This document shows positions 7,246 through 38,613 of a DNA stretch of 64,000 bases, piece after piece. The position numbers were made by a program, and so were the translations under genes. Source of the stretch: Telmatospirillum sp. (GTDB taxonomy: Bacteria; Pseudomonadota; Alphaproteobacteria; CACIAM-22H2); NCBI GenBank assembly GCA_020248985.1, contig JADCGL010000020.1, forward strand, positions 132,227-196,226, given 5' to 3'. Position 1 is the first letter of the stretch; the number at the start of each line of letters is the position of its first letter. The notes beneath the pieces are model-generated. The model had not been told where the DNA came from and did not search any database. It was given only the letters and a program-made list of their open reading frames with translations.

Positions 7246-7950
7246 CTATTGGCGGACTTGGGCGATCTGGTCGAAGCTGCGCCGCACATAGACGATCTGG
7301 GCGCCGCGCGCTTCGAAGCGCAGGCCGACCCAGCTGTCGTCGGCGGCGTAGCTCAGATCGGCTTTGAGATCGCCCGTGACGCGGTAGGTCGAAACGCGCT
7401 GCGGGATCCCGTCGGCGGTCATGCTCGTTTCGCCGAGATTTTCGTTGGCGACCGTCGCAAGCTTGCCGCTCTGGGTATCCAGAAGCGCGCTGCGGTTCAG
7501 CTTGTCGCGATTCCAGTAGCTGCTGGGGGCGGTGTCGGCAGGGGCCAAGTAGCTGCCGCCGCTGCCTGAGACGGCCAAGCCCGACTCCCCGGCCGTGGCC
7601 AGCACGCGGGTGCGCGTGCCGTTGTCGTCGGTCGAGGCTTCGAGCGAGACGAGGCGCTCGCCCGACCACACTTCGGTGGCGCGATGCGTGTAGCGATAGA
7701 CGGTGACGAAAGCGAGTTTCACGGCCATGTCGATGGCGACTTCGACTTCGCGGCGGTTGCCTGCCTCGCGGATCGTGACGCGGTGCGTGCCGATGCTCGT
7801 GCCGTCGCGCATGACGTCGAACGTCAAGGTCTGCGTCGTGGCCGGAGCTTCTTCGCGCGGGCCGAAATTGGCGAGGGCCGGCGTTGCGGTGCCGAGCCCC
7901 AGACCAAGCCCAAGGCTCAAAACGCTCGCAAGGAGGAAACGGCTGATCAT
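7246..7950 (-). CDS. hypothetical secreted protein (signal peptide MISRFLLASVLSLGLGLGLGTATPALA)
   Basis: 234-aa ORF with a clean signal peptide and high-GC third positions. No family is recognised. Confidence 0.6.
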   Translation of the reverse strand: MISRFLLASVLSLGLGLGLGTATPALANFGPREEAPATTQTLTFDVMRDGTSIGTHRVTIREAGNRREVEVAIDMAVKLAFVTVYRYTHRATEVWSGERLVSLEASTDDNGTRTRVLATAGESGLAVSGSGGSYLAPADTAPSSYWNRDKLNRSALLDTQSGKLATVANENLGETSMTADGIPQRVSTYRVTGDLKADLSYAADDSWVGLRFEARGAQIVYVRRSFDQIAQVRQ

Positions 7951-7990
7951 GATCGCACTTGCTCCGTGGCTGATCTGGATACCTCTTGTA

Positions 7991-8016
7991 CGTCAATTTG
8001 CGTCAATCGGTTCAAT
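7991..8016 (+). repeat. three direct repeats (CGTCAAT, CGTCAAT, TTCAAT) phased at 10 bp
   Basis: cgtcaatttgcgtcaatcggttcaatg lies in the divergent intergenic region between 7246..7950(-) and the Fnr-type regulator gene. The one-helical-turn spacing suggests a protein binding array. Confidence 0.35.
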
Positions 8017-23822: not shown

Positions 23823-24208
23823 CGAAAAAGTCCGCCCTGCCGGACGGCATGTCCGAGTACCGGCTCATCTTTTTCCGCGAAAGCGAAATGGTGCAGGCGA
23901 TCGGCGCGTTCGTGCGGCTGCAGAAAAAGCCGCTGCCCGTGGGCATGATCACGCGCATGGTGTTCGACGAAGACGATTTTTCGATGACGCTGCATATGGA
24001 GCGCGATTCGGGCGGCAAGGTCGAGCGCAGTTTCAAACAGTCGGAAATCGCGGCCGCTCTGATCGGCTACTGCAAAAACGCGCGCATTCCCTTGCCGCGT
24101 TCGGGCAGAAAAGAACTGCGCATCATCTCGAACCGGCCGGCTTTCCTCATTCGCGAACACGGCAGCGGCGTCGATCTCGACGATGCGCTGGTCGATTTCC
24201 GGGATTGA
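23819..24208 (+). CDS. hypothetical protein P2 (about 129 aa), paralogue of P1
   Basis: MTKKSALPDGMSEYRLIFFRESEMVQAIGAFVRLQKK...SEIAAALIGYCKNARIPLPRSGRKELRIISNRPAFLI. It shares the SEYR-I-F...A-AF and AAAL-CK-R-PL core with P1. Its stop overlaps the lhr start codon (TTGA). Confidence 0.6.
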   Translation: MTKKSALPDGMSEYRLIFFRESEMVQAIGAFVRLQKKPLPVGMITRMVFDEDDFSMTLHMERDSGGKVERSFKQSEIAAALIGYCKNARIPLPRSGRKELRIISNRPAFLIREHGSGVDLDDALVDFRD

Positions 24209-26679
24209 CGCCGATTAGCCCCGGCACGCCCGTGCCCCCGCATAAACTTCCCGCCCCGTTCGATGCCTGGTTCGCCGCACGCGGCTGGCGCTTGCGCAAG
24301 CACCAGGGCGAATTGCTGGCCGCCGCACGCGACGGAAATTCGGTGCTGCTCGTGGCGCCGACGGGGGCGGGCAAGACGCTGGCGGGCTTTCTGCCGAGCC
24401 TCGTCGATATCGCGGCCGATCCGCGCCCGCGCTTGCACACGCTCTACATCTCGCCGCTGAAAGCGCTGGCGGTCGATATTCACCGCAATCTCGAAGCGCC
24501 GATCGCCGAGATGGGTCTCGCGATTCGCGCTGATACCCGCACGGGCGACACGCCCGCGTCCAAACGCCGTCGCCAGCGCAGCGATCCGCCGCATCTGCTG
24601 CTGACCACGCCCGAATCGCTGGCCTTGCTGCTCTCCTATCCCGATGCGGGCACGCTGTTCGGCGAGCTTGCCTGCGTGGTGGTGGACGAGGCGCACGCGC
24701 TTGCCGGCACCAAGCGCGGCGATCTGCTGGCGCTGGGCTTGGCGCGGCTCGCAGGCCTGGCGCCGAACGCGCGGCGCGTCGGCCTGTCGGCGACCGTCGC
24801 CGATCCGCCGATGTTGGCGCGCTGGCTCTCGGCGGGCCTCAAGCACGCGGCCGATATCGTCTTCGGCGAAGCGGGGGCGCGGCCCGAGATCACGATCGTC
24901 AATCCGGCCGCGCGCGTGCCGTGGTCCGGCCACGGGGCCGTGCATGCGCTGCCGGAAGTCTATATGGCGCTCAAGAACGCGCGCGCGGCGATCGTGTTCG
25001 TGAATACGCGCGCCCAGGCAGAGATCTGCTTTCGCGAATTGTGGAAGCTCAACGACGACAATCTCGCCATCGCCTTGCACCATGGCAGTCTTGCGGTCGA
25101 ACAGCGTCGGCGCGTGGAAGCCGCGATGGCGGCGGGCAAACTGCGCGCGGTCGTGGCGACGTCGTCGCTCGATCTCGGCATCGATTGGGGCAATGTCGAT
25201 CTGGTCGTGCAAGTTGGCGCCCCCAAGGGCGCTTCGCGCCTGCTGCAGCGCTTGGGCCGGGCCAACCACCGGCTCGACGACGCAAGCCGCGCGTTGCTCG
25301 TCCCCGGCAACCGTTTCGAGATGCTCGAATGCGTGGCCGCGATCGCGGCCGTGGCAGCGGACGAGCTCGACCGCCTGCCCGAACGACCCGGTGCGTTGGA
25401 CGTGCTCGCCCAGCATTTGCTGGGTCTCGCTTGTGCAGGCCCGTTCGATGAAGATGCGGTCTACGCGCAGACCATCTCGGCACTGCCCTACGCCGATCTT
25501 TCGCGCGCCGATTTCGATGCGGTCCGCAACTATGTCGCGACCGGCGGCTACGCGCTGGCGGGCTACGAGCGCTATCGGCGCCTGGTGCGCGATGCGGCCG
25601 GGCATTGGGCCGTGGCCGACCCTTCGTTCGTGCGCCAATATCGCATGAATATCGGCACCATCGTCGAAGAGCCGATGCTGCATGTCGCGTTCAAGCGCGG
25701 CAAACGTCTGGGCTCGATCGAAGAATATTTCGCGCTCGGGCTCGAGATCGGCGACACGTTTGCGTTCGCGGGCCAAATCCTGCGCTTCGAGGGTTTGCGC
25801 GACGGCACGCTCGAAGTTTCGAAGGCCGCGTCTTCCGAGCAGCCCAAAGTGCCGGTCTATGCGGGCGGGCGCATGCCGTTCACGAGCGAGCTTGCCTCGC
25901 GCGTGCGCGCGTTGCTGCAGGATCCGCCCGCCTGGGCGGGCTTTCCCGCCGACGTGCGCGAATGGCTGCATTTGCAGCGCAAGCGCAGCCAGATGCCGGA
26001 CCGTACCGGATTGCTCGTCGAAACCTTTCCGCGCGACGGGCGCTGGTTCCTGGTCGCGTATTGTTTTGCGGGCCGCAACGCGCATCAGAGTTTGGGCATG
26101 CTGCTGACCCGGCGCATGGCGCGCGCCGGGTTGCGGCCGATCGGGTTTGTTGCGTCCGACTACGCGATCGCCGTGTGGTCGGCCAAACATGCCGAGCGGC
26201 CGAGCGAACTTTTTACCGAAGACATGCTGGGCGACGATCTCGAAGAATGGCTCGCCGAAAGTTCGATGCTGAAGCGCAGCTTCCGCAACGTCGCGGTCAT
26301 TGCAGGCCTCATCGAGCGGCGCCATCCGGGCCAGGAAAAATCCGGCCGCCAGGTGACGTTTTCGTCGGACCTCATCTACGACGTTTTGCGCAAGCACCAG
26401 CCGGGCCATGTCCTGCTCAAAGCCGCCCGCGCCGACGCCGACGCCGGCATGATCGATCTCGTGCGTTTGGCGCAGATGCTGAAGGCCGCGCGCGGGCGCA
26501 TTTCGCATCGCAGCCTGCCGCGCGTGTCGCCGCTCGCCGTGCCGATTCTGCTCGAAGTGGGCCGCGAATCGGTGCAAGGCTCCGCCCCCGACGAATGGCT
26601 CGCCGATGCCGCCGCCGCCCAAGCGCTGATCGACGAGGCGAGTTTCGAAGACGACGATCCGCAGCCGAGTCTGTTCTGA
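24205..26679 (+). CDS. lhr: Lhr-core type DEXH-box DNA helicase (ligase-associated DNA damage response helicase)
   Basis: 824 aa with FDAWFAARGW...HQGELL, Walker A APTGAGKT, DEAH box VVVDEAHAL and the second RecA domain. Length and domain order fit Lhr-core. Start is the overlapping TTG 24205 or GTG 24229. Confidence 0.88.
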   Translation: MTPISPGTPVPPHKLPAPFDAWFAARGWRLRKHQGELLAAARDGNSVLLVAPTGAGKTLAGFLPSLVDIAADPRPRLHTLYISPLKALAVDIHRNLEAPIAEMGLAIRADTRTGDTPASKRRRQRSDPPHLLLTTPESLALLLSYPDAGTLFGELACVVVDEAHALAGTKRGDLLALGLARLAGLAPNARRVGLSATVADPPMLARWLSAGLKHAADIVFGEAGARPEITIVNPAARVPWSGHGAVHALPEVYMALKNARAAIVFVNTRAQAEICFRELWKLNDDNLAIALHHGSLAVEQRRRVEAAMAAGKLRAVVATSSLDLGIDWGNVDLVVQVGAPKGASRLLQRLGRANHRLDDASRALLVPGNRFEMLECVAAIAAVAADELDRLPERPGALDVLAQHLLGLACAGPFDEDAVYAQTISALPYADLSRADFDAVRNYVATGGYALAGYERYRRLVRDAAGHWAVADPSFVRQYRMNIGTIVEEPMLHVAFKRGKRLGSIEEYFALGLEIGDTFAFAGQILRFEGLRDGTLEVSKAASSEQPKVPVYAGGRMPFTSELASRVRALLQDPPAWAGFPADVREWLHLQRKRSQMPDRTGLLVETFPRDGRWFLVAYCFAGRNAHQSLGMLLTRRMARAGLRPIGFVASDYAIAVWSAKHAERPSELFTEDMLGDDLEEWLAESSMLKRSFRNVAVIAGLIERRHPGQEKSGRQVTFSSDLIYDVLRKHQPGHVLLKAARADADAGMIDLVRLAQMLKAARGRISHRSLPRVSPLAVPILLEVGRESVQGSAPDEWLADAAAAQALIDEASFEDDDPQPSLF

Positions 26680-26689
26680 GCACTTTGCA

Positions 26690-27412
26690 ATGCACGCGCG
26701 CCTGACGCTCGAAGAAACGCCGCTGTTCGCCGATCCGTCGGGCGGCCTCTATTGGCCCGCGCGCCGCACGCTGGTGGTGGCCGATCTGCATCTCGAAAAA
26801 GGTTCGGCGTTCGCGGCCCGCCGCACGCTGCTGCCGCCCTACGATTCGGCCGCGAGCCTCGCCAAGCTGCAGGGGCTCATCCGCAAATTCACGCCGGCGC
26901 GCGTCGTGTGCTTGGGCGATTCGTTCCACGATGTGCGCGCCGAGGCGCGCATGGCGCCCAACGATGCGGCATTGCTCAGACGCATGGTGGCAGCGCTCGA
27001 CTGGGTGTGGGTCGTGGGCAACCACGATCCGGCGATACCGCCGGCCTTCGGCGGCCGAGCCGTGTCCGAAATCGTCGAGGACAAGCTCGCTTTGCGCCAC
27101 GAACCGGCGGCTTCAAGCGGCTTGGCGCCGGGCGAAATCGTCGGCCATTTCCACCCCAAAGCCGCCGTCGCCACGCAAGGCGGGCGCATTGCGGCCCCCT
27201 GTTTTGCGCTCGACGGGCGGCGCATGGTGCTGCCGGCCTTCGGCGCCTATGCGGGCGGGCTCGATGTGCTGGACCCCGCCATCGCCCGGCTGTTCGGGCG
27301 CGCGCGCTTTCGCGTGCTGATGCTGGGGGGCGAACGCTTGCATTTGTTCGGCCGCGAGCGTCTGCTCCCCTTTGGTGCGCACCCGGATACCGCCAAAAAG
27401 TCCAATCGGTGA
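26690..27412 (+). CDS. pdeM: ligase-associated DNA damage response endonuclease PdeM (MPE metallophosphoesterase)
   Basis: 240 aa with LVVADLHLEKGS, CLGDSFHD, VVGNHD and GHFHP metallophosphoesterase motifs. It follows the Lhr-core gene, the established Lhr-core/MPE pairing. Confidence 0.82.
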   Translation: MHARLTLEETPLFADPSGGLYWPARRTLVVADLHLEKGSAFAARRTLLPPYDSAASLAKLQGLIRKFTPARVVCLGDSFHDVRAEARMAPNDAALLRRMVAALDWVWVVGNHDPAIPPAFGGRAVSEIVEDKLALRHEPAASSGLAPGEIVGHFHPKAAVATQGGRIAAPCFALDGRRMVLPAFGAYAGGLDVLDPAIARLFGRARFRVLMLGGERLHLFGRERLLPFGAHPDTAKKSNR

Positions 27413-27437
27413 TCCATGATGCGGCGCACAGCGTAAA
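27410..27437 (+). promoter_or_regulatory. candidate ECF sigmaE-type promoter (TGATCC-N16-CGTAAA) upstream of phr
   Basis: TGATCC overlaps the pdeM stop codon. After 16 nt comes CGTAAA, about 45 nt before the phr ATG. This resembles the Rhodobacter RpoE -35 TGATCC / -10 CGTA class, recalled from memory. Confidence 0.3.
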
Positions 27438-27480
27438 CAGTCGCGAACAACGTCAAACCAACGGTCTTTTTCGAAAAACA

Positions 27481-28917
27481 ATGGCAGCGGCGCCGATACT
27501 CGTTTGGTTTCGTCAGGATCTGCGCCTGACCGACAATCCGGCCCTCGCTGCTGCGGCGGCGACGGGGGCCCCCGTCTTTTGCGTCTATATCCGCGACAGA
27601 GGCGGCGAGAGTGCTTGGGCGCCAGGGGCGGCATCGGATTGGTGGCTGCATCATTCGCTGGCGTCGCTCGGCGCTTCGCTTGCCAAACTGGGCAGCCGCT
27701 TGATCCTGCGCAGTGGTGCGGCCCAGCCCGTGCTCGAAGGGCTCATCGCCGAGACGGGGGCTGAAACCGTCTATTGGAACCGGCGCTACGAGCCCGCCGC
27801 GATCGCGCGCGACAGTGCGATCAAAGCGGCTTTCGAGAAGCGCGGCCTTGCCGCCAAAAGTTTCAATGCGAGTCTGCTCTTCGAGCCTTTGACGATCCGC
27901 AACAAAAGCGGCGGGCCGTATCGCGTATTCACGCAATTCTGGAAAACCTGTATGGCGGGCGAAGCCCCGCCGCTTCCTTTGCCGGCGCCCAAGAAACTCG
28001 CCGCACCGACCGCGTGGCCAGCGTCCGATGCGCTTGAAACCTGGAACCTCACGCCGCGCAAACCCGATTGGGCCGCTGGTTGGCAGGAGCTGTGGCAGCC
28101 CGGCGAAGCGGGTGCCAATGCGCGGCTGGCGCGGTTCCTCAAAGAGGCGGTCGCGGGCTACAAACAAGACCGCAACCGCCCCGATCTCGAAGCCACGTCC
28201 CGCCTGTCCGCCCATCTGCATTTCGGCGAGATCGGGCCGCGCCAATGTTTCCATGCCGCCCAAGCCGCGGCCGGCGGGACGGCGGGGTCGGACACGTTCT
28301 TGTCCGAATTGGGCTGGCGCGAATTCGCGCACCATCTGTTGTTCCAGCATGCCGATCTGCCGGAAGCGCCGTTGCGCGCCGATTTCCGGAGCTTCCCGTG
28401 GGCCGACGATGCGGCGAAGCTCTGCGCCTGGCAGCGCGGCCAAACCGGCTATCCGATCGTCGATGCCGGCATGCGCGAGCTGTGGCAGACCGGCTGGATG
28501 CATAATCGCGTGCGCATGATCGTGGCCTCGTTTCTGGTCAAGCATCTTCTGCTGCCGTGGCAGCAGGGCGAGGCGTGGTTCTGGGACACGCTTGTCGATG
28601 CCGACCTCGCCAACAATGCCGCGAGCTGGCAGTGGGTCGCGGGCTGCGGGGCGGATGCCGCTCCGTATTTCCGCATCTTCAATCCGATCCTGCAGGGTGC
28701 CAAGTTCGACCCCGACGGTGCCTATACGCGCCGCTACGTGCCGGAACTCGCCGAGCTGCCGACCGAATATCTGTTTGCACCCTGGGAAGCGCCCGCTGCG
28801 GTGCTCACAAAAGCGCGTCTGCGTTTGGGCACCGACTATCCGTTGCCGATCGTGGACCACGCAAAAGCGCGCGCGCGCGCCCTTGCAGCTTTCCAGACGC
28901 TGAAGAATGCGGCCTAG
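27481..28917 (+). CDS. phr: deoxyribodipyrimidine photo-lyase (CPD photolyase, cryptochrome/photolyase family)
   Basis: MAAAPILVWFRQDLRLTDNPAL; the FAD-binding C-terminal domain with WREFAHHLLF, TGYPIVDAGMRELWQTGWMHNRVRMIVASFLVKHL and W-W-AGCGADAAPYFRIFNP. Confidence 0.92.
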   Translation: MAAAPILVWFRQDLRLTDNPALAAAAATGAPVFCVYIRDRGGESAWAPGAASDWWLHHSLASLGASLAKLGSRLILRSGAAQPVLEGLIAETGAETVYWNRRYEPAAIARDSAIKAAFEKRGLAAKSFNASLLFEPLTIRNKSGGPYRVFTQFWKTCMAGEAPPLPLPAPKKLAAPTAWPASDALETWNLTPRKPDWAAGWQELWQPGEAGANARLARFLKEAVAGYKQDRNRPDLEATSRLSAHLHFGEIGPRQCFHAAQAAAGGTAGSDTFLSELGWREFAHHLLFQHADLPEAPLRADFRSFPWADDAAKLCAWQRGQTGYPIVDAGMRELWQTGWMHNRVRMIVASFLVKHLLLPWQQGEAWFWDTLVDADLANNAASWQWVAGCGADAAPYFRIFNPILQGAKFDPDGAYTRRYVPELAELPTEYLFAPWEAPAAVLTKARLRLGTDYPLPIVDHAKARARALAAFQTLKNAA

Positions 28918-28918
28918 C

Positions 28919-30238
28919 ATGGAACGTTTGAATATTGCCGTCGTCGGCTCCGGCATTTCGGGTTTGAGTGCGGCTTGGCTGCTGGCCAAGCGCCACCGCG
29001 TGACCTTGTTCGAAAAGCAGGACCGGCTCGGCGGCCACACCAACACGGTGCACACAAAAGCGCGCGCCGAGGATGGTTCGCTGCGCGACGTCGCGGTCGA
29101 TACGGGCTTCATCGTCTACAACGATGCGACGTATCCAGACCTCATCGCGCTGTTTGCGCATCTGGGCGTGGCCGCGCGCCAGTCGGACATGTCGTTTGCG
29201 GCTTCGATCGACCGCGGCCGCATCGAATATTCAGGCGGCACGCTTGCCGGCCTGTTTGCGCAGAAGCGCAACATCCTGCGCCTCGACCATTGGCGCATGC
29301 TGCGCGACTGCATGCGCTTCTTCCGCGAGGCGACGGCGTTGTGCGCGGCCGAAACCGACGATCCGCGCGATCTCGGCACCTTCTTGGCGCAAGGCGGCTA
29401 CAGCCGCGCTTTCGTCGAAAACCATCTGCTGCCGATGGCGGCGGCGATCTGGTCGTGCCCGGCCAAAACCATGATGGCGTTTCCGGTCGTGAGCCTTGCG
29501 CGCTTCTTCCGCAACCACGGGCTTCTGCAGATTTTCGACCGCCCGGCCTGGCGCACAGTGCAAGGCGGCAGCCGCACCTATATCGGCAAATTGCTCGAGG
29601 ATGCCGGCAGCGCTTTGACGCTTGCGCCCGGCGCGGTTGCCATTGAAGCGGGCGCCGACGGCGCGCAGCTGCGCGATGCGACGGGGCAGACCCATCGCTT
29701 CGACCGCGTGGTCTGTGCCGCCCATGCCGACGAGACGCTGGCGCTGCTCGTCGATGCGACACCGCTCGAAAAAGAGATTCTCGGCCGTTTCCGCTTCCAG
29801 TCCAACCGCGCGATTCTGCACCAGGACGATTCGCTGATGCCCAAGCGCAAAGCGGCCTGGTCGAGCTGGAACTATCTCGCCGAACGGCGCGGCCACGGGC
29901 TCGACGGCGAAATGGCCGTATCGGTCACCTACTGGATGAACCTCTTGCAGGGGCTCGACCCGGCCGTGCCGCTGTTCGTGTCGCTCAATCCGCTGGCCCC
30001 GCCCGCGATGGCCAAGACGCTCGCGACCTTCGACTACATGCACCCCGTCTTCGACGAAGGGGCGATGGCCGGCCAGAAGCGCTTGGGCGAAATACAGGGC
30101 AAGCGCGGGCTTTATTTCTGCGGGGCGTGGACCGGCTACGGCTTCCACGAAGACGGCTTGCGTTCGGGCCTCGATATTGCAGAATTGCTCGGCGTGAAGC
30201 GGCCCTGGGCGCAAGCCCAGGCAAACGCCGCCGACTGA
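28919..30238 (+). CDS. NAD(P)/FAD-dependent oxidoreductase (amine-oxidase-like) of the CFA cluster
   Basis: MERLNIAVVGSGISGLSAAWLLAK dinucleotide-binding fold. The start is 2 nt after the phr stop. Confidence 0.82.
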   Translation: MERLNIAVVGSGISGLSAAWLLAKRHRVTLFEKQDRLGGHTNTVHTKARAEDGSLRDVAVDTGFIVYNDATYPDLIALFAHLGVAARQSDMSFAASIDRGRIEYSGGTLAGLFAQKRNILRLDHWRMLRDCMRFFREATALCAAETDDPRDLGTFLAQGGYSRAFVENHLLPMAAAIWSCPAKTMMAFPVVSLARFFRNHGLLQIFDRPAWRTVQGGSRTYIGKLLEDAGSALTLAPGAVAIEAGADGAQLRDATGQTHRFDRVVCAAHADETLALLVDATPLEKEILGRFRFQSNRAILHQDDSLMPKRKAAWSSWNYLAERRGHGLDGEMAVSVTYWMNLLQGLDPAVPLFVSLNPLAPPAMAKTLATFDYMHPVFDEGAMAGQKRLGEIQGKRGLYFCGAWTGYGFHEDGLRSGLDIAELLGVKRPWAQAQANAAD

Positions 30239-30253
30239 AAGAGCCCCGGGGAA

Positions 30254-31042
30254 ATGCCAGAAAACTGCCTCTATTTCGGCAATGTGTTGCATGCGCGGCT
30301 GCGGCCGTTCCGGCATCGTTTTGCCTACGGCGTTTTCTCGATGCTCGTCGATCTCGACGCGGTGCCGGACCTCGCGCGTGGCTCGCGCCTGTTCGCCTAC
30401 AACCGGCCCGGCCTGTTCGCCTTCTACGATGCCGACCATGGCGCGCGCGACGGCAGCACGGTGCGCGAATGGGTGCAGGTGAATTTGGATAAGGCCGGGC
30501 TCGCGGCGGCCGGTGCCAAAATCTACGCGCTGTGTTTCCCGCGCGTGCTGGGCTACGTGTTCAATCCGCTCACGGTCTATTTCTGCTACGCCGCCGACGG
30601 TCGCCTTTCCGCGATGCTGTACGAGGTCAAAAACACGTTCGGCGACCAGCACGGCTATCTCATTCCGGTCGCCGCCGACCGCGCACCGAGCGCACCCGTC
30701 GTGCAGCAGGCGGCCAAACATTTCCACGTGTCGCCCTTCATCGACATGGCGCAGCTCTACCGTTTCCGCGTCGCCGAGCCTGAGGAAAAGCTCACGCTGC
30801 TGATCCGCGAAGACGCCGCCGACGGCGAATTGCTGGTCGCAAGCCAGACCGGCCGGCGCGTTGCCTGGAACGACCGCAATCTCTTTCGCGCCTTCGTGCG
30901 CTATCCGCTGCTGACGTTCAAAGTGATCGGCGCTATCCATTGGGAAGCGCTGCGCCTTTGGCTGAAAGGTGCCCGCTACCATGCAAGACCAGTCGCTCCC
31001 GCAATCCCTGTCGAAATCGTCGTTCGCCATGCTGAAATCTGA
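30254..31042 (+). CDS. DUF1365 domain protein
   Basis: HARLRPFRHRFAYGVFSMLVDLD...CFPRVLGYVFNPLTVYFCY is the typical DUF1365 core, and the gene sits in its usual CFA-cluster position. Confidence 0.8.
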   Translation: MPENCLYFGNVLHARLRPFRHRFAYGVFSMLVDLDAVPDLARGSRLFAYNRPGLFAFYDADHGARDGSTVREWVQVNLDKAGLAAAGAKIYALCFPRVLGYVFNPLTVYFCYAADGRLSAMLYEVKNTFGDQHGYLIPVAADRAPSAPVVQQAAKHFHVSPFIDMAQLYRFRVAEPEEKLTLLIREDAADGELLVASQTGRRVAWNDRNLFRAFVRYPLLTFKVIGAIHWEALRLWLKGARYHARPVAPAIPVEIVVRHAEI

Positions 31043-32234
31043 AATTCCGGGCCTTGCCTTGCGCACCCTGCTCGCCGCGGGCGAGCATATCGAGATCGGC
31101 TGCCTGACCGTGACCTTGCCCGACGGTTCGCAGCGCGTGTTTCGCGGACCCAAACCCGGCCCGCAGGCGGAGCTCGCGATTCGCACGAACCGGGCCGCGC
31201 GCCAGATCCTGTTCGGCGGCAATGTCGGTTTTGCCGAAGCCTATATGGACCACGGCATCGACTCGCCCGACATGGCGGCGATGCTCGAACTTGCCGTGCT
31301 CAACGAAACCGCGATCGATCCGATCCATTACGGCACGGCGAGCCGCATTGGGCCCATCGTCGGTTATGTGCGTCGCCTGTGGCATGCGCTGCGCGCCAAC
31401 ACGCGCGCGGGCTCGCAGCGCAACATCGCCTACCATTACGATCTCGGAAACGCGTTCTACGAACGTTGGCTCGATCCGTCGATGGCCTATTCCTCGGCCG
31501 TCTATCCGACCGGCGTGGCCGATCTCGAAGCGGCCCAACAAGCCAAGTTCAAGCAGATGGCGACGATGATGGCCGTCGCACCCGGCCAGAAAGTGCTCGA
31601 AATCGGCTGCGGCTGGGGCTCTTTCGCGGCCTTCCTTGCCAAAGAATACCAAGCCAAAGTGACCGCGATCACGGTGAGCCGCGAGCAGCTCGCCCACACG
31701 CAAGCCAAGGTCCAGGCCGAAGGGCTCGGCGATCTCGTCGAAACGCGCTTCGTCGATTATCGCGACGTCGAAGGGCGCTATGACCGCATTGCGTCCATCG
31801 AAATGTTCGAGGCGGTCGGCGAAAAATACTGGCCCGCTTATTTCGGCAAGCTGCACGATTGCCTGCAGCCCGGCGGACGTGCCGCTCTGCAGATCATCAC
31901 CATCGCCGACCAATGTTTCGAGCGCTACCGCAACGGCGTGGATTTCATCCAGCGCTACATTTTCCCGGGCGGCATGCTGCCTTCGCCCACCGCCCTCAAG
32001 CGCGAATACGAAGCGGCCGGCCTGCGTCTCGAGAAGCAGAGCAATTTCGGCGAAGACTATGCGCGCACGCTCGCCGAATGGAATCGCCGCTTCCAGGCCG
32101 CGTGGCCCGAGATCGAGCCGCTCGGCTTCGACGGGCGCTTCAAGCGCATGTGGGAGTTCTATCTCGCCTATTGCGAAGCAGGCTTCCGCGGACGCTCGCT
32201 CGACGTCACACAGGTTGCCCTTGTCCGCGCGTGA
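30981..32234 (+). CDS. cfa: cyclopropane-fatty-acyl-phospholipid synthase
   Basis: SAM-binding VLEIGCGWGSFAAFLAKEY, YDRIASIEMFEAVGEKYW and YIFPGGMLPS. Start is ATG 30981, with GTG 30969 or ATG 31029 as alternatives. It overlaps the DUF1365 gene end. Confidence 0.88.
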   Translation: MQDQSLPQSLSKSSFAMLKSEIPGLALRTLLAAGEHIEIGCLTVTLPDGSQRVFRGPKPGPQAELAIRTNRAARQILFGGNVGFAEAYMDHGIDSPDMAAMLELAVLNETAIDPIHYGTASRIGPIVGYVRRLWHALRANTRAGSQRNIAYHYDLGNAFYERWLDPSMAYSSAVYPTGVADLEAAQQAKFKQMATMMAVAPGQKVLEIGCGWGSFAAFLAKEYQAKVTAITVSREQLAHTQAKVQAEGLGDLVETRFVDYRDVEGRYDRIASIEMFEAVGEKYWPAYFGKLHDCLQPGGRAALQIITIADQCFERYRNGVDFIQRYIFPGGMLPSPTALKREYEAAGLRLEKQSNFGEDYARTLAEWNRRFQAAWPEIEPLGFDGRFKRMWEFYLAYCEAGFRGRSLDVTQVALVRA

Positions 32235-33576
32235 CGAAAAGAAACTGCCCGCGTCCCTGCTCGCCGCCTACGCGTTGCCGGCTTTGCCTGCCGCAATGCT
32301 GGGTCTGCCGCTGCTGATCTTTCTGCCCGCCTACTATGTCGAAACCACGGCGCTGAGCCTGACCGCGATCGGCAGCGTACTGCTTGTCGCCCGCCTGTGG
32401 GACGTGGCGGTCGATCCGGCCATCGGCGCTTTGTCCGACCGCACGCACACGCCGCTCGGCCGGCGCAAGCCCTGGATCCTCGCTGCGTTGCCCTTCGTGC
32501 TGCTCGGCAGCTATATGCTGTTCGATCCGCCGACGGATGCGAGTGCGGGCTATTTGTTGCTGTGGTTGCTCGTCGTCTATCTCGGCTGGTCGATGGTGCA
32601 GATCCCGCACCAGGCCTGGGGGGCCGAGCTATCGAGCGACTATGCCGAACGCAGCCGCATTGCTGCCTGGCGCGAGAGCCTCACCGTCGTCGGCGTTGCG
32701 ATCGCGGCGTCGCTGCCGACCGTGGCAGTGCAGACCGGCCTCCTGCATCCCGGCGATTCGCCCGAAGGATTTGCGCTGCACGTGCTCGTCGTGGCCTGTG
32801 CGATTTTGCTGCCGATCGCGGCGTTTGTGCTTGTGCGCTTTGTGCCCGAGCCCAAAGCCGTTGAAGCCGCCAGCGGCTTTGATTTGCGCGCAGGCTGGCA
32901 CTTGCTGCGGGACAACCGGCCGTTCCGCCGCCTCGTGGTCGCCTATCTCGTCAACGGCGTTGCCAATGCACTGCCGGCCACGTTGTTTTTGCTCTATGCG
33001 GGCAGCGTGCTGGGGGCGGGCGACCAATCGGGCGCATTCCTGCTCGTTTATTTCCTGAGCGGCATTGCAGCCGTACCCTTGTGGCTGCGCGCATCGAAGC
33101 TCTGGAGCAAACACCGCGCCTGGAGTGCCTCGATGGTTGCAGCGTGCGGTGCCTTTGCCATCGTGCCGTTTCTGGGCAATGGCGATACGGCGGCGTTCCT
33201 TGCGATTTGCCTACTCACCGGCCTGTGCTTCGGCGCGGACCTCGCATTGCCCGCCTCGATGCAGGCCGACGTCGTCGATGTCGACACGGCCGGCGGCGGG
33301 GGCCAGCGCACCGGGCTCTATTTTGCTATCTGGTCGGTCGCGACCAAGCTTGCATTGGCGCTGGCACCGGCCTTGGCGTTTCCGGCCCTCGATGCGGCGG
33401 GATTCGTCGCGAACGATCTGGCCAGCCCTGGCCATGCTATGCTGGCATTTCTCTATGCGGGCGTGCCGGTGGTTTTCAAACTCGGGGCCGCCTATCTCAT
33501 TTGGAATTTCCCGCTCGACGCCGCTGCGCAAACGCAGCTGCGTGCGCGCATTGCCGAAAGGGTCGGTGCCCGATGA
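32221..33576 (+). CDS. MFS transporter (GPH/sugar-cation symporter-like) of the CFA cluster
   Basis: N-terminal region aligns to the MelB-like LPASLLAAYALP...VARLWDVAVDPAIGALSDRTHTPLGRRKPW. Start is assigned to TTG 32221, overlapping the cfa 3' end, and is uncertain. Confidence 0.78.
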   Translation: MSARDEKKLPASLLAAYALPALPAAMLGLPLLIFLPAYYVETTALSLTAIGSVLLVARLWDVAVDPAIGALSDRTHTPLGRRKPWILAALPFVLLGSYMLFDPPTDASAGYLLLWLLVVYLGWSMVQIPHQAWGAELSSDYAERSRIAAWRESLTVVGVAIAASLPTVAVQTGLLHPGDSPEGFALHVLVVACAILLPIAAFVLVRFVPEPKAVEAASGFDLRAGWHLLRDNRPFRRLVVAYLVNGVANALPATLFLLYAGSVLGAGDQSGAFLLVYFLSGIAAVPLWLRASKLWSKHRAWSASMVAACGAFAIVPFLGNGDTAAFLAICLLTGLCFGADLALPASMQADVVDVDTAGGGGQRTGLYFAIWSVATKLALALAPALAFPALDAAGFVANDLASPGHAMLAFLYAGVPVVFKLGAAYLIWNFPLDAAAQTQLRARIAERVGAR

Positions 33577-34103
33577 TCCGCCGTTTTCTCGTATTGCTGG
33601 CGACGACGCTGGCGTTGATGGGGTGCAGTGGCATGAAGATCGAAGATTTCGCGGGCAAGACGCCCGTCTTGAAGATCGACGAGTATTTCCTCGGCCGCAC
33701 GCGCGCCTGGGGCATTTTCGAGGACCGCTTCGCCAATCTGCGCCGCGAATTCACGGTCGACATCGAAGGCAAGTGGGAGGGCGACGAGTTCGTCCTCGAC
33801 GAGCATTTCGACTATGCCGACGGCGAGAAGGATCGCCGCGTATGGCGCTTGCGCCGCGTCGGCACCGACCGTTGGGAAGGGCGCACCGAAGACGCGATCG
33901 GCGTGGCCTTGGGCCACCAAGTCGGCAACGCCTTCAGCTTCAAATACAACATCAATCTCAAGATGGGCGAACGGCGCTTGGCCGTGCATTTCGACGATTG
34001 GATGTATTTGCAGCCGGACGGCCTGTTGCTCAACCGCGCCTACGTGACCAAATGGGGTTTCGATATCGGCTCGGTCACGCTCGCCTTTAAGCGGGTACCT
34101 TGA
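33573..34103 (+). CDS. DUF3833 family lipoprotein
   Basis: MIRRFLVLLATTLALMGCSG lipobox. The ATGA overlap with the MFS gene stop is the usual CFA-cluster position. Confidence 0.65.
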   Translation: MIRRFLVLLATTLALMGCSGMKIEDFAGKTPVLKIDEYFLGRTRAWGIFEDRFANLRREFTVDIEGKWEGDEFVLDEHFDYADGEKDRRVWRLRRVGTDRWEGRTEDAIGVALGHQVGNAFSFKYNINLKMGERRLAVHFDDWMYLQPDGLLLNRAYVTKWGFDIGSVTLAFKRVP

Positions 34104-34494
34104 GGCGGCGGCGCACGAGGCCGACGAGCCAGCCGATCACCGGCAATTTGGCATAGACCTCGGTGCTCGCATCCCAATGGTCGATGTGGGCGCAAATGCG
34201 CCCGTCGGGCGCGAAGCGGACTTCGCTCATTCCGTCGAACTCAAACCCGTTGCCCTGGTCGTAGCGCCAGAGGAGATACGCGCCTTGGGCCCCGCGCGCT
34301 TTGTCGCGCACCGTGAAGCGCGGCGTGCCGTGGTCGAACGCCATGGCAAGGGCCGCGCGCATTTTGTCGACACCGGTCACGTCGTTGAACGGATCTTTGA
34401 AGCGCACGTCCGGTGTGACGAGCGCGTCGAGTGCGCCCAGATTGTCGCGCCGGATATTCTCGAAAAACGCGACATAGGCGTCGAGCTTGTCCAT
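34087..34494 (-). CDS. nuclear transport factor 2 (SnoaL-like) family protein
   Basis: 135 aa: MDKLDAYVAFFENIRRDNLGALDALVTPDVRFKDPFNDVTG...AHIDHWD. The start overlaps the SDR gene stop (TGATG). Confidence 0.55.
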   Translation of the reverse strand: MDKLDAYVAFFENIRRDNLGALDALVTPDVRFKDPFNDVTGVDKMRAALAMAFDHGTPRFTVRDKARGAQGAYLLWRYDQGNGFEFDGMSEVRFAPDGRICAHIDHWDASTEVYAKLPVIGWLVGLVRRRLKVPA

Positions 34495-35240
34495 CAAACC
34501 CCCGTCATGCGCCGCACGAGTTTGAAATAGAGCCCGTAGGGCAGCATGCGCAGAAACTTGAGCAGGATCGCAAAGCGGCGCGGGAACACGATTTCGAAGC
34601 TGTTGCCGGCAAGGCCTGCGACGAACGCGTCGATCGCGTCGTCGAGTTCCATCAGGAACGGCATCGGAAAATCGTTTTTGTCGGTGAGCGGCGTGCGCAC
34701 AAAACCCGGATCGACGAGCTGCAGCTTGATGCCGAGCGCGTCGCATTCGAGCTTCAGCCCTTCGCACATATTGATGAGGGCGGCTTTGGTGGCCCCGTAG
34801 GCCGACGCAGTCGGCAGGCCCGAATAGCCGGCGACGGACGCGACGACCGCAATATGTCCGCTTTTGCGCGCCCGCATGGCGGCGAGCGTGGGGGCGAGCA
34901 CATTGACCGTGCCCATCAGATTGATCTCGACGAGCTGGCGGAACGGGGCCACGGCAAAATCCGCCGCTCCCATCGGCAGATGCGTGCCCGCGTTGAACAC
35001 GGCAAGGGCGAGCGGCCCGATCTCGGCCTCGATCCAGGCGACGGCGTTTTCGCACGCGTCCTTGTCGGTCGCGTCGAGGGCGAGCGGCACGAGGTTTTTG
35101 CCGCCCTCGGCCGCCAACGCGTCGAGGGCGGCTTGATTGCGCGCCGAGGCCACGACCGTGCGGCCTTCGCGTGCGAGGCGCAAAGCAAGGGCGCGGCCAA
35201 TGCCCGACGACGCCCCGGTGATCCAGACGATTTCGCTCAT
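34494..35240 (-). CDS. SDR family oxidoreductase
   Basis: TGASSGIGRALALRL Rossmann motif and catalytic YGATKAAL. Confidence 0.85.
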   Translation of the reverse strand: MSEIVWITGASSGIGRALALRLAREGRTVVASARNQAALDALAAEGGKNLVPLALDATDKDACENAVAWIEAEIGPLALAVFNAGTHLPMGAADFAVAPFRQLVEINLMGTVNVLAPTLAAMRARKSGHIAVVASVAGYSGLPTASAYGATKAALINMCEGLKLECDALGIKLQLVDPGFVRTPLTDKNDFPMPFLMELDDAIDAFVAGLAGNSFEIVFPRRFAILLKFLRMLPYGLYFKLVRRMTGV

Positions 35241-35241
35241 G

Positions 35242-35979
35242 TCAGGCTTTTACGCGCAAACTGCCGCGACCGCCATCCACGCCGACGATTTGGCCCGTGA
35301 TCCAGCCCGCTTTGGGCCCGAGCAAGAAGGCGCCGAGGGCGGCCGCATCGTCGGGTGCGCCGATGCGACCCAGCGGGTGCATCGCATCCATGGCTTTTTC
35401 GAGCGACGGGTTCGACAGAAACGCCGCCGCCATCTTGCTGCGTGTGAGGCTGGGCGCGATGCAATTGACGCGCACGTTGGGCGCAAGCTCGGCCGCCAGC
35501 GACAGCGACAGCGCTTCGACCGCCCCCTTGGCCGAGGCGATCACGCTGTGCTGCGGAAAGCCTTGGCCCGCCGCCACGCTCGAAAACAGCAATACCGCCC
35601 CCTTGGCCTGCGCCAACGCCGCCTGTGCCGCTTTGATCGCAAGCGCTGCCCCAATCACGTTGAGGCGATAGGCGTCGGCAAAATCGGCGGCCGTTGCGCG
35701 CGCCAGCGGCTTCAGCACGATCGAGCCCACGCACCAGGCAAGCCCGGCGATCCCGGCACCCTCAGCCGATGCCGCCGTAACGGTCGCGGCAATGCTCGCA
35801 TCGTCGAGCGCGTCGAACGGGCTCGTCGTTGCGCTCAGTTCCTGGCCGAGGGCGGCAAGGGCCGGGGCGTCGCGCGCGGCCAGATGCAGGCGATGACCGT
35901 CGGCGGCGAGACTGCGCGATAGTGCTTGGCCAATGGCACCCGTGGCGCCGAAAACGAGAAAGGGGGCTTGGTTTGTCAT
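35242..35979 (-). CDS. SDR family oxidoreductase (second copy)
   Basis: FGATGAIGQAL Gly-rich motif, SVAAGQGFPQHSVIASAKGAVE. Its stop is 1 nt after the neighbouring SDR gene start. Confidence 0.8.
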   Translation of the reverse strand: MTNQAPFLVFGATGAIGQALSRSLAADGHRLHLAARDAPALAALGQELSATTSPFDALDDASIAATVTAASAEGAGIAGLAWCVGSIVLKPLARATAADFADAYRLNVIGAALAIKAAQAALAQAKGAVLLFSSVAAGQGFPQHSVIASAKGAVEALSLSLAAELAPNVRVNCIAPSLTRSKMAAAFLSNPSLEKAMDAMHPLGRIGAPDDAAALGAFLLGPKAGWITGQIVGVDGGRGSLRVKA

Positions 35980-36037
35980 GCCAAAGACATGGCGTGGCGG
36001 GCTGGAAAAACCATGGGTTTGGCGCTATGTTTGGGCC

Positions 36038-36358: not shown

Positions 36359-36376
36359 TCCCGTCGTTTTTTTGGT

Positions 36377-36804: not shown

Positions 36805-38613
<1,809 letters not shown>

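What the first reader, a model, noticed from the sequence alone, without database searches (positions are those of the whole stretch)
27405..34103. Photolyase heads a six-gene coupled operon with the cyclopropane-fatty-acid cluster behind a possible sigmaE-type (TGATCC-N16-CGTAAA) promoter
phr, the FAD oxidoreductase, DUF1365, cfa, the MFS transporter and the DUF3833 lipoprotein are linked by a 2-nt gap and three overlaps (14, 14 and 4 nt). Convergent SDR/NTF2 genes close the locus. In Rhodobacter sphaeroides the ECF sigma factor RpoE (with ChrR) drives both a photolyase and the cfaS operon in the singlet-oxygen response. Here the motif TGATCC-N16-CGTAAA overlaps the pdeM stop codon, about 45 nt before the phr ATG. 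It resembles that RpoE promoter class, though the consensus is recalled from memory and not checked. That would put Lhr/PdeM, photolyase and membrane-lipid remodelling in one photo-oxidative/UV stress neighbourhood.
Basis: partly seen in the sequence, partly recalled or inferred. Interest (0 to 1): 0.5.

Follow-up and report, generated by a model that had tools for sequence, protein, structure and literature searches.

The report
Singlet-oxygen sigma-factor promoter before photolyase operon
The motif is real and matches the published promoter type of the ChrR-controlled stress sigma factor (ECF11 sigma-E); it sits in front of a photolyase and furan-fatty-acid gene operon that is already known as the core of the bacterial singlet-oxygen response, so this is a new example of a known system rather than a new one.

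Summary
TGATCC(27410-27415)-N16-CGTA(27432-27435) is the only exact match in 64 kb. It overlaps the pdeM stop codon and lies 45 nt before the phr ATG (27481). Six same-strand genes follow, tightly packed: 1-nt gap, 15-nt gap, then overlaps of 14, 14 and 4 nt.

The motif equals the experimentally derived consensus of ChrR-type sigma-E (ECF11) in Pseudomonas syringae and Shewanella oneidensis. In both species phrB and cfa share one sigma-E-driven operon.

The boxes are conserved at the same place in relatives. They occur in 8 of 9 syntenic alphaproteobacterial loci and in 6 of 6 closer relatives. The spacer and flanks diverge.

The "cyclopropane-fatty-acid cluster" is most likely the furan-fatty-acid pathway: UfaD (FAD oxidase), UfaO (DUF1365) and UfaM (Cfa-like methylase). 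It is followed by the same GPH-family transporter family as in the Rhodobacter sphaeroides sigma-E operon, plus a small lipoprotein and a nearby SDR that correspond to the rest of that operon in size and type.

Not shown: the rpoE-chrR pair. It is absent from the window and from 10 kb either side of phr in close relatives. The link to Lhr is variable between relatives.

By-product: a secreted DUF6134 protein (7246-7950) carries a near-consensus site and travels with this regulon in many metagenomes.

Verdict: a new member of a known kind, of low to moderate interest.

The parts
27410..27415 (+). -35 box TGATCC, preceded by G. Its first three bases are the pdeM stop codon TGA.
   Evidence: Identical to the published ECF11 -35 element. 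Invariant in alignment A3 and in 16 related loci.
27432..27437 (+). -10 box CGTA(AA), 16 nt downstream of the -35 box.
   Evidence: Matches CGTA / CGTAAT of P. syringae and Shewanella. Invariant in relatives while the spacer keeps only 5-12 of 16 bases.
27441..27446 (+). Predicted transcription start zone. This is inferred and not mapped. It would give a 5' leader of about 35-40 nt.
   Evidence: Inference from mapped starts a few bases downstream of CGTA in Shewanella.
27467..27478 (+). A/T-rich perfect palindrome TTTTTCGAAAAA, 2 nt before the phr ATG. No Shine-Dalgarno-like GGAG is present. Function unknown.
   Evidence: Sequence. A related T-run/A-run is kept in relatives with 78-93% Phr protein identity (alignment A3).
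27481..28917 (+). phr: class III-type CPD photolyase, 478 aa.
   Evidence: Pfam DNA_photolyase + FAD_binding_7. The best solved relative is 4U63 at 574 bits, which I recall as Agrobacterium PhrA, against 304 bits for E. coli photolyase 1DNP.
28919..30238 (+). UfaD-like FAD-dependent fatty-acyl desaturase (amine-oxidase fold), 439 aa.
   Evidence: Pfam Amino_oxidase/NAD_binding_8. Same family and position as RSP1091/RPA2571. It starts 1 nt after the phr stop.
30254..31042 (+). UfaO-like DUF1365 protein, 262 aa.
   Evidence: Pfam DUF1365, E 2.5e-79. UfaO (RSP1090/RPA2570) is the characterised DUF1365 protein that closes the furan ring using O2.
31029..32234 (+). UfaM-like SAM-dependent fatty-acyl methylase (Cfa-like), 401 aa.
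   Evidence: Pfam CMAS. Below all three NCBIfam CFA-synthase cutoffs: 272 bits against 400, 263 against 600 and 218 against 650. 194 bits to E. coli CFA synthase 6BQC. Gene order ufaD-ufaO-ufaM as in R. palustris.
32221..33576 (+). GPH-family (MFS_2) transporter, 451 aa.
   Evidence: Pfam MFS_2 and TIGR00792 similarity. The R. sphaeroides sigma-E operon gene RSP_1089 is annotated as a sugar/cation symporter of the GPH family.
33573..34103 (+). DUF3833 lipoprotein, 176 aa. N-terminus MIRRFLVLLATTLALMGC, with a lipobox.
   Evidence: Pfam DUF3833. ATGA start/stop overlap. It probably corresponds to RSP_1088 (186 aa, whose P. syringae orthologue is annotated as a lipoprotein). That correspondence is inferred.
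34087..35979 (-). Convergent operon SDR (35242-35979) - SDR (34494-35240) - SnoaL/NTF2 (34087-34497). No sigma-E-like site is recognisable upstream.
   Evidence: Pfam. Motif scan allowing up to 2 mismatches found nothing near 35980-36250. In other genomes SDR-SnoaL follow DUF6134 or chrR behind an exact motif.
24205..27412 (+). lhr (24205-26679) and pdeM (26690-27412). These are upstream neighbours and are not behind the motif.
   Evidence: Pfam and TIGR04123. Lhr is absent in relatives L165-L168, which keep the promoter.
7989..8014 (-). Near-consensus site TGAACC-N16-CGTA, 38 nt before the ATG of the DUF6134 gene.
   Evidence: The same variant is found upstream of DUF6134 in relatives L082, L083 and L162 and in 7 other metagenome loci.
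7246..7950 (-). Secreted DUF6134 protein (234 aa). It is a candidate additional regulon member.
   Evidence: Pfam. Synteny with the phr/ufa/SDR genes in dozens of loci. AlphaFold model with pLDDT 90 and a LolA-like open beta-barrel fold.

Best explanation
The sequence at 27410-27435 is a promoter of the ECF11 class. This is the class read by the sigma factor called RpoE/sigma-E in Rhodobacter sphaeroides, which is held inactive by the zinc anti-sigma factor ChrR.

Proposed mechanism: when singlet oxygen, organic peroxide or UV-A triggers ChrR degradation, sigma-E RNA polymerase binds TGATCC (-35) and CGTA (-10) and starts a few bases downstream. It then transcribes one polycistronic mRNA carrying:
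- a class III-type CPD photolyase;
- UfaD, UfaO and UfaM, which together convert vaccenate in phospholipids into the furan fatty acid 9M5-FuFA, a membrane-bound singlet-oxygen scavenger that in Rhodobacter also feeds back on ChrR turnover;
- a GPH-family transporter;
- a DUF3833 lipoprotein.

The short gaps and the 14-, 14- and 4-nt overlaps point to translational coupling.

What is shown: the motif, its match to the published consensus, its conservation, the gene families and their packing. What is inferred: sigma-E dependence, inducibility, a single transcript, and the furan-fatty-acid product.
For: 1. The match to experimentally derived consensus sequences is exact, including the 16-nt spacing.

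2. The downstream genes are family-level counterparts of the seven non-regulatory genes of the two R. sphaeroides sigma-E operons. These operons are phrA-cfaS (RSP2143-2144) and RSP1091-1087, which comprise an amine oxidase, DUF1365, a GPH symporter, a 186-aa protein and an SDR.

3. Merged phrB...cfa operons behind this promoter are documented in P. syringae and Shewanella.

4. Footprinting across genomes. Among 80 phr loci from reference genomes, the exact N16 motif lies within 250 nt upstream of phr, on the sense strand, in 10 loci. That includes 8 of the 9 loci that share the phr-FADox-DUF1365-Cfa order. The background rate is 2.5e-6 per position, giving binomial P of about 1e-20.

5. Footprinting in closer relatives. 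Six more loci with 75-93% Phr protein identity all carry the motif. In alignment A3 the boxes are 10 of 10 identical in every sequence. The spacer keeps 5-12 of 16 bases and the leader 4-32 of 45.

6. The promoter stays with phr when the upstream gene changes: to a convergent cyclase in L167, or to no lhr in L165, L166 and L168.

7. The same motif precedes ChrR-like genes in L017, L028 and L059. It also lies between divergent rpoE-chrR and ufaD in L126 and L145, which is the Rhodobacter layout.

8. UfaM, UfaD and UfaO are necessary and sufficient for FuFA synthesis in R. sphaeroides and R. palustris, and the R. palustris gene order is the one seen here. The Cfa-like protein fails every CFA-synthase equivalog cutoff.
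Against: No ECF sigma factor or ChrR gene was found in the 64-kb window. Pfam scans of about 40 ORFs found none. tblastn with five ChrR sequences, two ECF11 RpoE sequences and E. coli RpoE also found none. None lies within 10 kb of phr in six close relatives. The rest of the genome could not be searched.

There is no transcription-start or expression data.

No terminator separates pdeM from phr, so read-through from lhr-pdeM is possible.

One syntenic genome (Elioraea, L015) lacks the motif.

The UfaM/UfaD/UfaO assignment rests on family, gene order and regulon context. The window proteins were not compared directly with the characterised proteins.
Confidence: 0.78

Rival explanations
1. The motif is a functional ECF-type promoter but is read by a sigma factor that is not paired with ChrR. 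This could be a different ECF group with the same box preferences, or an ECF11 sigma factor under another anti-sigma. The inducing signal would then not need to be singlet oxygen.
For: No rpoE-chrR pair was found in the window or near phr in close relatives. In Ferrovibrio and Hyphobacterium the ChrR-like gene carries the motif but has no adjacent sigma gene. A variant box, TGAACC, recurs upstream of DUF6134 and could belong to a paralogous sigma factor.
Against: Where the regulator is next to the cluster (L126, L145) it is a canonical rpoE-chrR pair with the exact motif on both sides. Every experimentally studied organism with this motif uses a ChrR-paired sigma factor.
Confidence: 0.1
2. The Cfa-like gene encodes a true cyclopropane fatty acid synthase. 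The cluster would then remodel membranes by cyclopropanation rather than by making furan fatty acids.
For: The best named hits are CFA synthases: NF008686 at 272 bits and 6BQC at 194 bits. The orthologous genes are still annotated cfa or cfaS in many genomes and papers.
Against: The score is below the curated cutoff of every CFA-synthase equivalog model. The gene sits directly after UfaD- and UfaO-type genes in the order shown to make FuFA in R. palustris. The R. sphaeroides "cfaS" of this regulon was shown to be the methylase UfaM.
Confidence: 0.12
3. The six genes are not one sigma-E transcript. They are mainly expressed by read-through from the lhr-pdeM unit or from unrecognised internal promoters, and the motif adds little.
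For: The pdeM-phr spacer is only 68 nt and has no terminator-like hairpin. There is a 15-nt gap before DUF1365. Some other genomes have an exact motif between DUF1365 and Cfa, in L132-L135.
Against: The boxes are strictly conserved next to phr even where lhr or pdeM is absent or the upstream gene is convergent. No sigma-70-like promoter is detected across 26500-36500. The only other near-match in the operon (32354, TGAGCC) lies inside the MFS gene and is within chance expectation.
Confidence: 0.12
4. The motif is a chance match created by the pdeM stop codon and has no function.
For: A 10-base pattern is expected 0.14 times per window, and 13% of shuffles contain one somewhere.
Against: Its position, strand, exact spacing and conservation across 16 related loci with diverged spacers cannot be explained by chance.
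Confidence: 0.01

Closest known systems
Core sigma-E/ChrR (ECF11) singlet-oxygen regulon of Rhodobacter (Cereibacter) sphaeroides. It was defined by Dufour, Landick & Donohue 2008, reviewed in PMC6852236, and comprises the operons phrA-cfaS (RSP2143-2144) and RSP1091-1087.
   Same: Same promoter boxes. Same gene families: photolyase, Cfa-like methylase UfaM, FAD oxidase UfaD, DUF1365 UfaO, GPH symporter, small lipoprotein and SDR.
   Different: Here the two Rhodobacter operons are fused into one phr-led unit. The SDR sits on the convergent strand without a recognisable site. rpoE-chrR is not adjacent, whereas in Rhodobacter it is divergent from RSP1091. The organism is an uncultured relative of Tagaea, which by my own knowledge belongs to the Rhodospirillales; nothing in the window indicates phototrophy.
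Pseudomonas syringae DC3000 PSPTO_1121 (phrB)-PSPTO_1114 operon under PSPTO_1043 (PMC5507510), and Shewanella oneidensis SO_3386-SO_3374 under RpoE2 (PMC4336711).
   Same: Photolyase and the cfa/amine-oxidase/DUF1365 genes share one operon behind TGATCC-N16-CGTA. In P. syringae the site lies inside the upstream gene, as it overlaps pdeM here.
   Different: Those operons also contain an SDR and other genes between phrB and the oxidase. Their promoters were verified by ChIP-seq, qRT-PCR or primer extension. Here nothing has been measured.
Furan fatty acid pathway UfaM/UfaD/UfaO (Lemke et al. 2020, PMC7380195), including Rhodopseudomonas palustris RPA2571-2570-2569.
   Same: Same three protein families in the same order ufaD-ufaO-ufaM.
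   Different: Orthology was not checked against the characterised sequences, and no FufM-type second methylase was looked for.
Ligase-associated DNA damage response cluster: Lhr helicase, PdeM phosphoesterase, ATP-dependent ligase and a metallo-beta-lactamase-fold exonuclease (NCBIfam TIGR04123 context).
   Same: Lhr and PdeM are present and adjacent.
   Different: The ligase and exonuclease genes seen next to lhr in relative L164 are not next to lhr in the window. The pair lies upstream of the promoter, not behind it.

Membership tests
ECF11 (sigma-E/ChrR) dependent promoter | -35 TGATCC and -10 CGTA separated by 16 nt | tested here: met
   Exact match at 27410-27435. Consensus taken from PMC5507510 and PMC4336711.
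ECF11 (sigma-E/ChrR) dependent promoter | Lies upstream, on the sense strand, of an orthologue of a core-regulon gene | tested here: met
   It lies 45 nt before phr, which is followed by the ufaD/ufaO/ufaM-type genes.
ECF11 (sigma-E/ChrR) dependent promoter | Boxes conserved at the orthologous position in other genomes while neighbouring bases drift | tested here: met
   10 of 80 reference loci carry it, including 8 of 9 syntenic ones (P about 1e-20), plus 6 of 6 closer relatives. The boxes are 10/10 identical while the spacer keeps 5-12 of 16 bases.
ECF11 (sigma-E/ChrR) dependent promoter | Cognate rpoE-chrR pair encoded in the same genome, normally autoregulated by the same motif | not testable with these tools
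   Absent from the 64-kb window and from 10 kb either side of phr in relatives. The rest of the genome is not available. The pair with the motif is seen in more distant loci L126 and L145.
ECF11 (sigma-E/ChrR) dependent promoter | Transcription start just downstream of CGTA, and induction by singlet oxygen or organic peroxide that depends on sigma-E | not testable with these tools
   This needs an experiment.
Furan fatty acid (UfaM/UfaD/UfaO) cluster | CMAS-family SAM methylase, FAD amine-oxidase-fold desaturase and DUF1365 protein encoded together | tested here: met
   Pfam hits for all three families. The order ufaD-ufaO-ufaM is the same as RPA2571-2569.
Furan fatty acid (UfaM/UfaD/UfaO) cluster | The methylase is not a bona fide cyclopropane fatty acid synthase | tested here: inconclusive
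   It scores below all three NCBIfam CFA-synthase cutoffs: 272/400, 263/600 and 218/650. No UfaM-specific model or reference sequence was available for a positive test.
Furan fatty acid (UfaM/UfaD/UfaO) cluster | Direct orthology to RSP2144, RSP1091 and RSP1090, and production of 9M5-FuFA | not tested
   The reference sequences are not held in any searchable collection used here. The product needs lipid analysis.
Class III CPD photolyase | Photolyase N-terminal domain plus FAD-binding domain, and closest to the Agrobacterium PhrA / plant-cryptochrome branch rather than to class I | tested here: met
   Pfam. 4U63 scores 574 bits, plant cryptochromes about 394 bits and E. coli 1DNP 304 bits. The best NCBIfam similarity is TIGR02766, below its cutoff. 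The identity of 4U63 as Agrobacterium PhrA and the "class III" label come from my own knowledge; the database lists it only as "DNA photolyase".
Ligase-associated Lhr/PdeM DNA damage response cluster | PdeM equivalog and an Lhr helicase with the DEAD_assoc and WH_Lhr domains | tested here: met
   TIGR04123 scores 214.9 bits against a cutoff of 150. Lhr domains found by Pfam.
Ligase-associated Lhr/PdeM DNA damage response cluster | ATP-dependent DNA ligase and metallo-beta-lactamase exonuclease encoded alongside | tested here: not met
   In the window lhr is preceded by two small ORFs without Pfam hits and an RND pump. Relative L164 does have the ligase and a Lactamase_B gene divergent from lhr.

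The most novel reading that the evidence does not exclude
The singlet-oxygen (ECF11) regulon has an unrecognised, widely conserved envelope branch. It would consist of a secreted DUF6134 protein with a LolA-like open beta-barrel, the DUF3833 lipoprotein and the GPH-family transporter. Together they would bind or move furan-containing or photo-oxidised lipids across the envelope.

In this window DUF6134 (7246-7950) has moved 20 kb away from the cluster but kept a near-consensus promoter, TGAACC-N16-CGTA. No paper in the searched library mentions DUF6134.
Probability: 0.4. Interest if true: 0.45.

Novelty: new member of a known kind. Interest (0 to 1): 0.22.

Why it matters
For the main finding this is chiefly a matter of correct annotation. 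It identifies the regulatory class of the phr operon in an uncultured alphaproteobacterium related to Tagaea. It re-labels a "cfa" cluster as a probable furan-fatty-acid pathway. It also shows that the published core regulon can be fused into a single photolyase-led operon in the Alphaproteobacteria, as in Pseudomonas and Shewanella.

The motif turned out to be extremely specific. About two thirds of the exact hits in roughly 1.3 Mb of related loci lie upstream of phr, chrR, rpoE, ufaD, cfa, SDR or DUF6134 genes, and most of the rest were not placed. It can therefore be used to map this regulon in metagenomes.

The more interesting lead is the by-product. DUF6134 is consistently linked to this regulon and has never been discussed in the searched literature.

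Tried and rejected
1. Search for rpoE-chrR in the window. I ran Pfam on about 40 ORFs and tblastn with E. coli RpoE, two ECF11 RpoE sequences and five ChrR sequences taken from related loci. Nothing was found. The weak hit at 8201-8317 is the helix-turn-helix of a Crp/Fnr regulator.

2. Search for the pair near phr in close relatives. None lies within 10 kb. The whole genome could not be reached. The exact Phr protein exists only on a 16-kb Logan contig, and the closest reference genome is a Tagaea MAG at 75% identity. I ran no further search on ChrR, because its hits could not be assigned to this organism.

3. Sigma-E site upstream of the convergent SDR-SDR-SnoaL operon. None was found with up to 2 mismatches.

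4. The 1-mismatch site at 32354 (TGAGCC). It lies inside the MFS gene, and the number of 1-mismatch hits is within chance (3 observed, 2.0 expected). Rejected.

5. The exact motif at the MFS/DUF3833 junction in L002, L166 and L168. It begins in the ATGA start/stop overlap and runs into the DUF3833 signal-peptide codons, so it cannot drive DUF3833. It is probably a coding coincidence shared by descent. The window has TGATCC there (33574-33579) but no CGTA at 16 nt.

6. SOS control. No alphaproteobacterial LexA-type GTTC-N7-GTTC lies near lhr, pdeM or phr.

7. Sigma-70 promoters, terminators and RNA elements. None stands out in 26500-36500. Rfam finds only a tRNA and a glycine riboswitch, both elsewhere.

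Full report
**What is in the sequence**

The window has about 66% G+C. It carries alphaproteobacterial marker genes such as TrcR, CtaG and SURF1.

At 27410-27437 the plus strand reads TGATCC-atgatgcggcgcacag-CGTAAA. This is the only exact TGATCC-N15-18-CGTA match in the 64 kb on either strand, against 0.14 expected.

The TGA of TGATCC is the stop codon of the pdeM ORF (26690-27412). The photolyase ATG is at 27481, and its product starts MAAAPILVWFRQDLRL.

- Lhr, 24205-26679.
- PdeM, 26690-27412. It also passes NCBIfam TIGR04123.
- Photolyase, 27481-28917.
- An amine-oxidase-fold FAD protein, 28919-30238.
- DUF1365, 30254-31042.
- A CMAS-family methyltransferase, 31029-32234.
- An MFS_2 transporter, 32221-33576.
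- A DUF3833 lipoprotein, 33573-34103.
- Convergent on the minus strand: SnoaL, 34087-34497, and two SDR genes, 34494-35240 and 35242-35979.

The 401-aa Cfa-like product and the two 14-nt overlaps are also what gene callers give for relatives. A pattern scan finds no sigma-70-like promoter in 26500-36500, and hairpin-plus-T-run sites occur only at the chance rate.

**Is the consensus right?**

Yes. In Pseudomonas syringae DC3000 the ChrR-paired ECF sigma factor PSPTO_1043 has the consensus TGATCCnnnnnnnnnnnnnnnnCGTA, derived from ChIP-seq and supported by qRT-PCR and by singlet-oxygen and peroxide reporter assays. The phrB (PSPTO_1121) to PSPTO_1114 operon, which contains the SDR, amine oxidase, DUF1365 and cfa genes, is one of its targets. 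The binding site lies inside the upstream gene PSPTO_1122 (PMC5507510).

In Shewanella oneidensis the RpoE2-ChrR promoters read TGATCC-N16-CGTAAT or CGTATT, with mapped transcription starts for rpoE2 and pgpD. The SO_3386-SO_3374 operon holds both phrB and cfa (PMC4336711).

The published core regulon consists of rpoE, chrR, phrB, cfaS, RSP1091, RSP1090, RSP1088 and RSP1087.

**Conservation**

A scan of reference genomes with the Phr protein gave 80 loci. The nearest is a Tagaea MAG at 75% identity.

The exact N16 motif lies within 250 nt upstream of phr, on the sense strand, in 10 of these loci. All ten are alphaproteobacterial or unclassified Pseudomonadota records, and the roughly 55 Verrucomicrobiota and Planctomycetota loci have none. 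Among the 9 loci that share the phr-FADox-DUF1365-Cfa order, 8 carry the motif. With a background of 2.5e-6 per position, the binomial P is about 1e-20.

Six closer relatives, with 75-93% Phr protein identity, were retrieved through protein look-ups. All carry the motif 34-82 nt before phr.

In an alignment built on coordinates relative to phr, the ten box positions are identical in all six sequences. The spacer keeps 5-12 of 16 bases and the leader 4-32 of 45. Even the relative with 93% Phr protein identity differs at 4 spacer and 13 leader positions.

The promoter stays with phr when the upstream gene changes. L167 has a convergent guanylate cyclase there, and L165, L166 and L168 have no lhr.

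**The motif marks the regulon**

In the related loci the other exact hits sit upstream of:
- ChrR-like genes in L017, L028 and L059;
- DUF6134 (L058 and many metagenome loci);
- the space between divergent rpoE-chrR and ufaD in L126 and L145, which is the Rhodobacter layout;
- cfa or SDR genes.

**What the genes do**

The photolyase is closest to 4U63 at 574 bits, against 304 bits for E. coli photolyase. From my own knowledge 4U63 is Agrobacterium PhrA, a class III CPD photolyase.

The "cfa cluster" needs re-reading. In R. sphaeroides the regulon's "cfaS" is UfaM, a SAM-dependent methylase that makes 11Me-12t-18:1. RSP1091 is the desaturase UfaD. RSP1090, a DUF1365 protein, is UfaO, which uses O2 to close the furan ring. 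[quoted passage not shown]

The window has these three families in that order. Its Cfa-like protein scores below every NCBIfam cyclopropane-synthase cutoff and only 194 bits against E. coli CFA synthase.

RSP_1089 is annotated as a GPH-family symporter, RSP_1088 is a 186-aa protein whose P. syringae orthologue is a lipoprotein, and RSP_1087 is an SDR. These match the window's MFS_2, DUF3833 and SDR genes in family or in size. The window therefore holds counterparts of all seven non-regulatory genes of the two Rhodobacter operons, six of them fused into one phr-led unit.

In Rhodobacter the FuFA genes are also needed for rapid ChrR turnover in singlet oxygen. The assignment here rests on family, gene order and context, not on direct comparison with the characterised proteins.

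**What is missing**

No ECF sigma factor or ChrR gene is in the window, and none lies within 10 kb of phr in six relatives. The source genome could not be searched. The exact Phr protein is on record only on a 16-kb Logan contig. The regulator is therefore inferred from the promoter.

**Lhr and PdeM**

Lhr/PdeM are upstream of the promoter. PdeM-like ORFs often precede phr, but Lhr is present in only some relatives. The ligase and exonuclease partners seen in L164 are not next to lhr here. No LexA-type box is nearby. I therefore do not count them as part of the unit, although read-through into phr is possible.

**By-product: DUF6134**

The only good 1-mismatch site outside a gene is TGAACC-N16-CGTA at 8014-7989 on the minus strand. 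It lies 38 nt before the ATG of a secreted DUF6134 protein, 7246-7950.

In relatives this gene heads the convergent DUF6134-SDR-SnoaL operon next to the phr/ufa cluster.

A metagenome scan with a DUF6134 alignment gave 80 loci. Of 75 usable ones, 18 have the exact motif within 300 nt upstream and 18 more have a 1-mismatch form. The TGAACC variant recurs in 9 loci, including two 87-88% identical relatives (also L162). The neighbours are almost always SDR, SnoaL, DUF3833, MFS, Cfa, DUF1365, FADox, Phr or ChrR genes.

An AlphaFold model (pLDDT 90) is an open beta-barrel. It most resembles the DUF1849 protein of Brucella (6NTR, TM 0.55-0.58) and, more distantly, VioE, LolA/LolB, RseB and LprG.

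No paper in the searched library mentions DUF6134. This is a lead, not a demonstrated function.

**Verdict**

- the lipid cluster is probably a furan fatty acid pathway, not a cyclopropane one;
- Lhr/PdeM are not part of the promoter's unit;
- the regulator has not been located.

The system is a further member of a well-described regulon.

Noticed in passing
window 7246-8014 (minus strand): The secreted DUF6134 gene has TGAACC-N16-CGTA 38 nt before its ATG. DUF6134 travels with the phr/ufa/SDR/chrR genes in dozens of genome and metagenome loci, often behind the exact ECF11 motif. Its predicted fold is a LolA-like open beta-barrel. No literature on it was found.
   Followed up: yes
window 8084-8884 (+): A Crp/Fnr-family regulator (cNMP_binding + HTH_Crp_2) is divergently transcribed from DUF6134. 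The shared 133-nt intergenic region contains a repeated TTGACG element (TTGACGCAAATTGACG) inside the spacer of the sigma-E-like site.
   Followed up: no
L017 17750-18417, L028 14961-15719, L059 16208-16966 (minus strands): ChrR-like genes in Hyphobacterium and Ferrovibrio sit directly behind an exact TGATCC-N16-CGTA, but no ECF sigma gene was detected anywhere in these ~21-kb loci. The two Ferrovibrio proteins carry the H-x3-C-x2-C zinc motif plus a cupin domain. In L017 and L059 the gene is followed by SDR and SnoaL or DUF6134 genes; in L028 it is convergent with cfa. The anti-sigma gene appears uncoupled from rpoE there.
   Followed up: partly
L162 2884-5134 against window 11580-11611: A relative that is 90% identical in DNA (JGI Ga0620611_001786) carries a 2.25-kb insertion that the window lacks. 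It encodes an ECF-like sigma factor (Sigma70_r2 + DUF6596, 411 aa), a YCII protein and a 149-aa membrane protein.
   Followed up: partly
window 27467-27478: A perfect A/T palindrome, TTTTTCGAAAAA, lies 2 nt before the phr ATG in an otherwise 66% G+C genome. There is no Shine-Dalgarno-like sequence. It is partly conserved in relatives with 78-93% Phr protein identity.
   Followed up: partly
window 24205-27412 compared with L164 4169-9933: Relative L164 has the full ligase-associated repair set: ATP-dependent ligase and Lactamase_B exonuclease divergent from lhr-pdeM. The window has only lhr-pdeM. Relatives L165-L168 lack lhr and have a PdeM-sized ORF, a guanylate cyclase, or both upstream of phr. 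This spot is a rearrangement hotspot between the RND pump and phr.
   Followed up: partly
window 23457-23822 and 23819-24208 (+): Two small overlapping ORFs (121 and 129 aa) have no Pfam hit. They appear to be distant paralogues of each other (31% identity by tblastn in L002) and are conserved after the RND pump in all close relatives.
   Followed up: no
L002 16136, L166 16120, L168 16132; window 33574-33579: An exact TGATCC-N16-CGTA begins in the ATGA stop/start overlap of MFS and DUF3833 and runs into the DUF3833 signal-peptide codons in three related genomes. The window keeps TGATCC there but not the CGTA. This is probably a coding coincidence, not a promoter.
   Followed up: yes
window 60139-60236 (+): A glycine riboswitch aptamer (Rfam RF00504, 60.8 bits) lies upstream of three ORFs at 60341-61537, 61557-61937 and 61952-63310. 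Only the middle one was identified, as glycine-cleavage protein H (Pfam GCV_H). The flanking two are probably gcvT and gcvP, judged from their position alone.
   Followed up: no
window 13292-13368 (+): tRNA-Arg (ACG), the only tRNA gene in the window.
   Followed up: no
window 36038-36358 (+) and 36377-36751 (-): Small conserved ORFs without Pfam hits lie between the SDR operon and a gene at 36805-38208 that by synteny with relatives is a CcrM-like N6_N4 methyltransferase. The plus-strand ORF has a twin-arginine-like N-terminus (MEKTRRAFL...) and is divergent from the SDR operon, with only a 58-nt gap.
   Followed up: no
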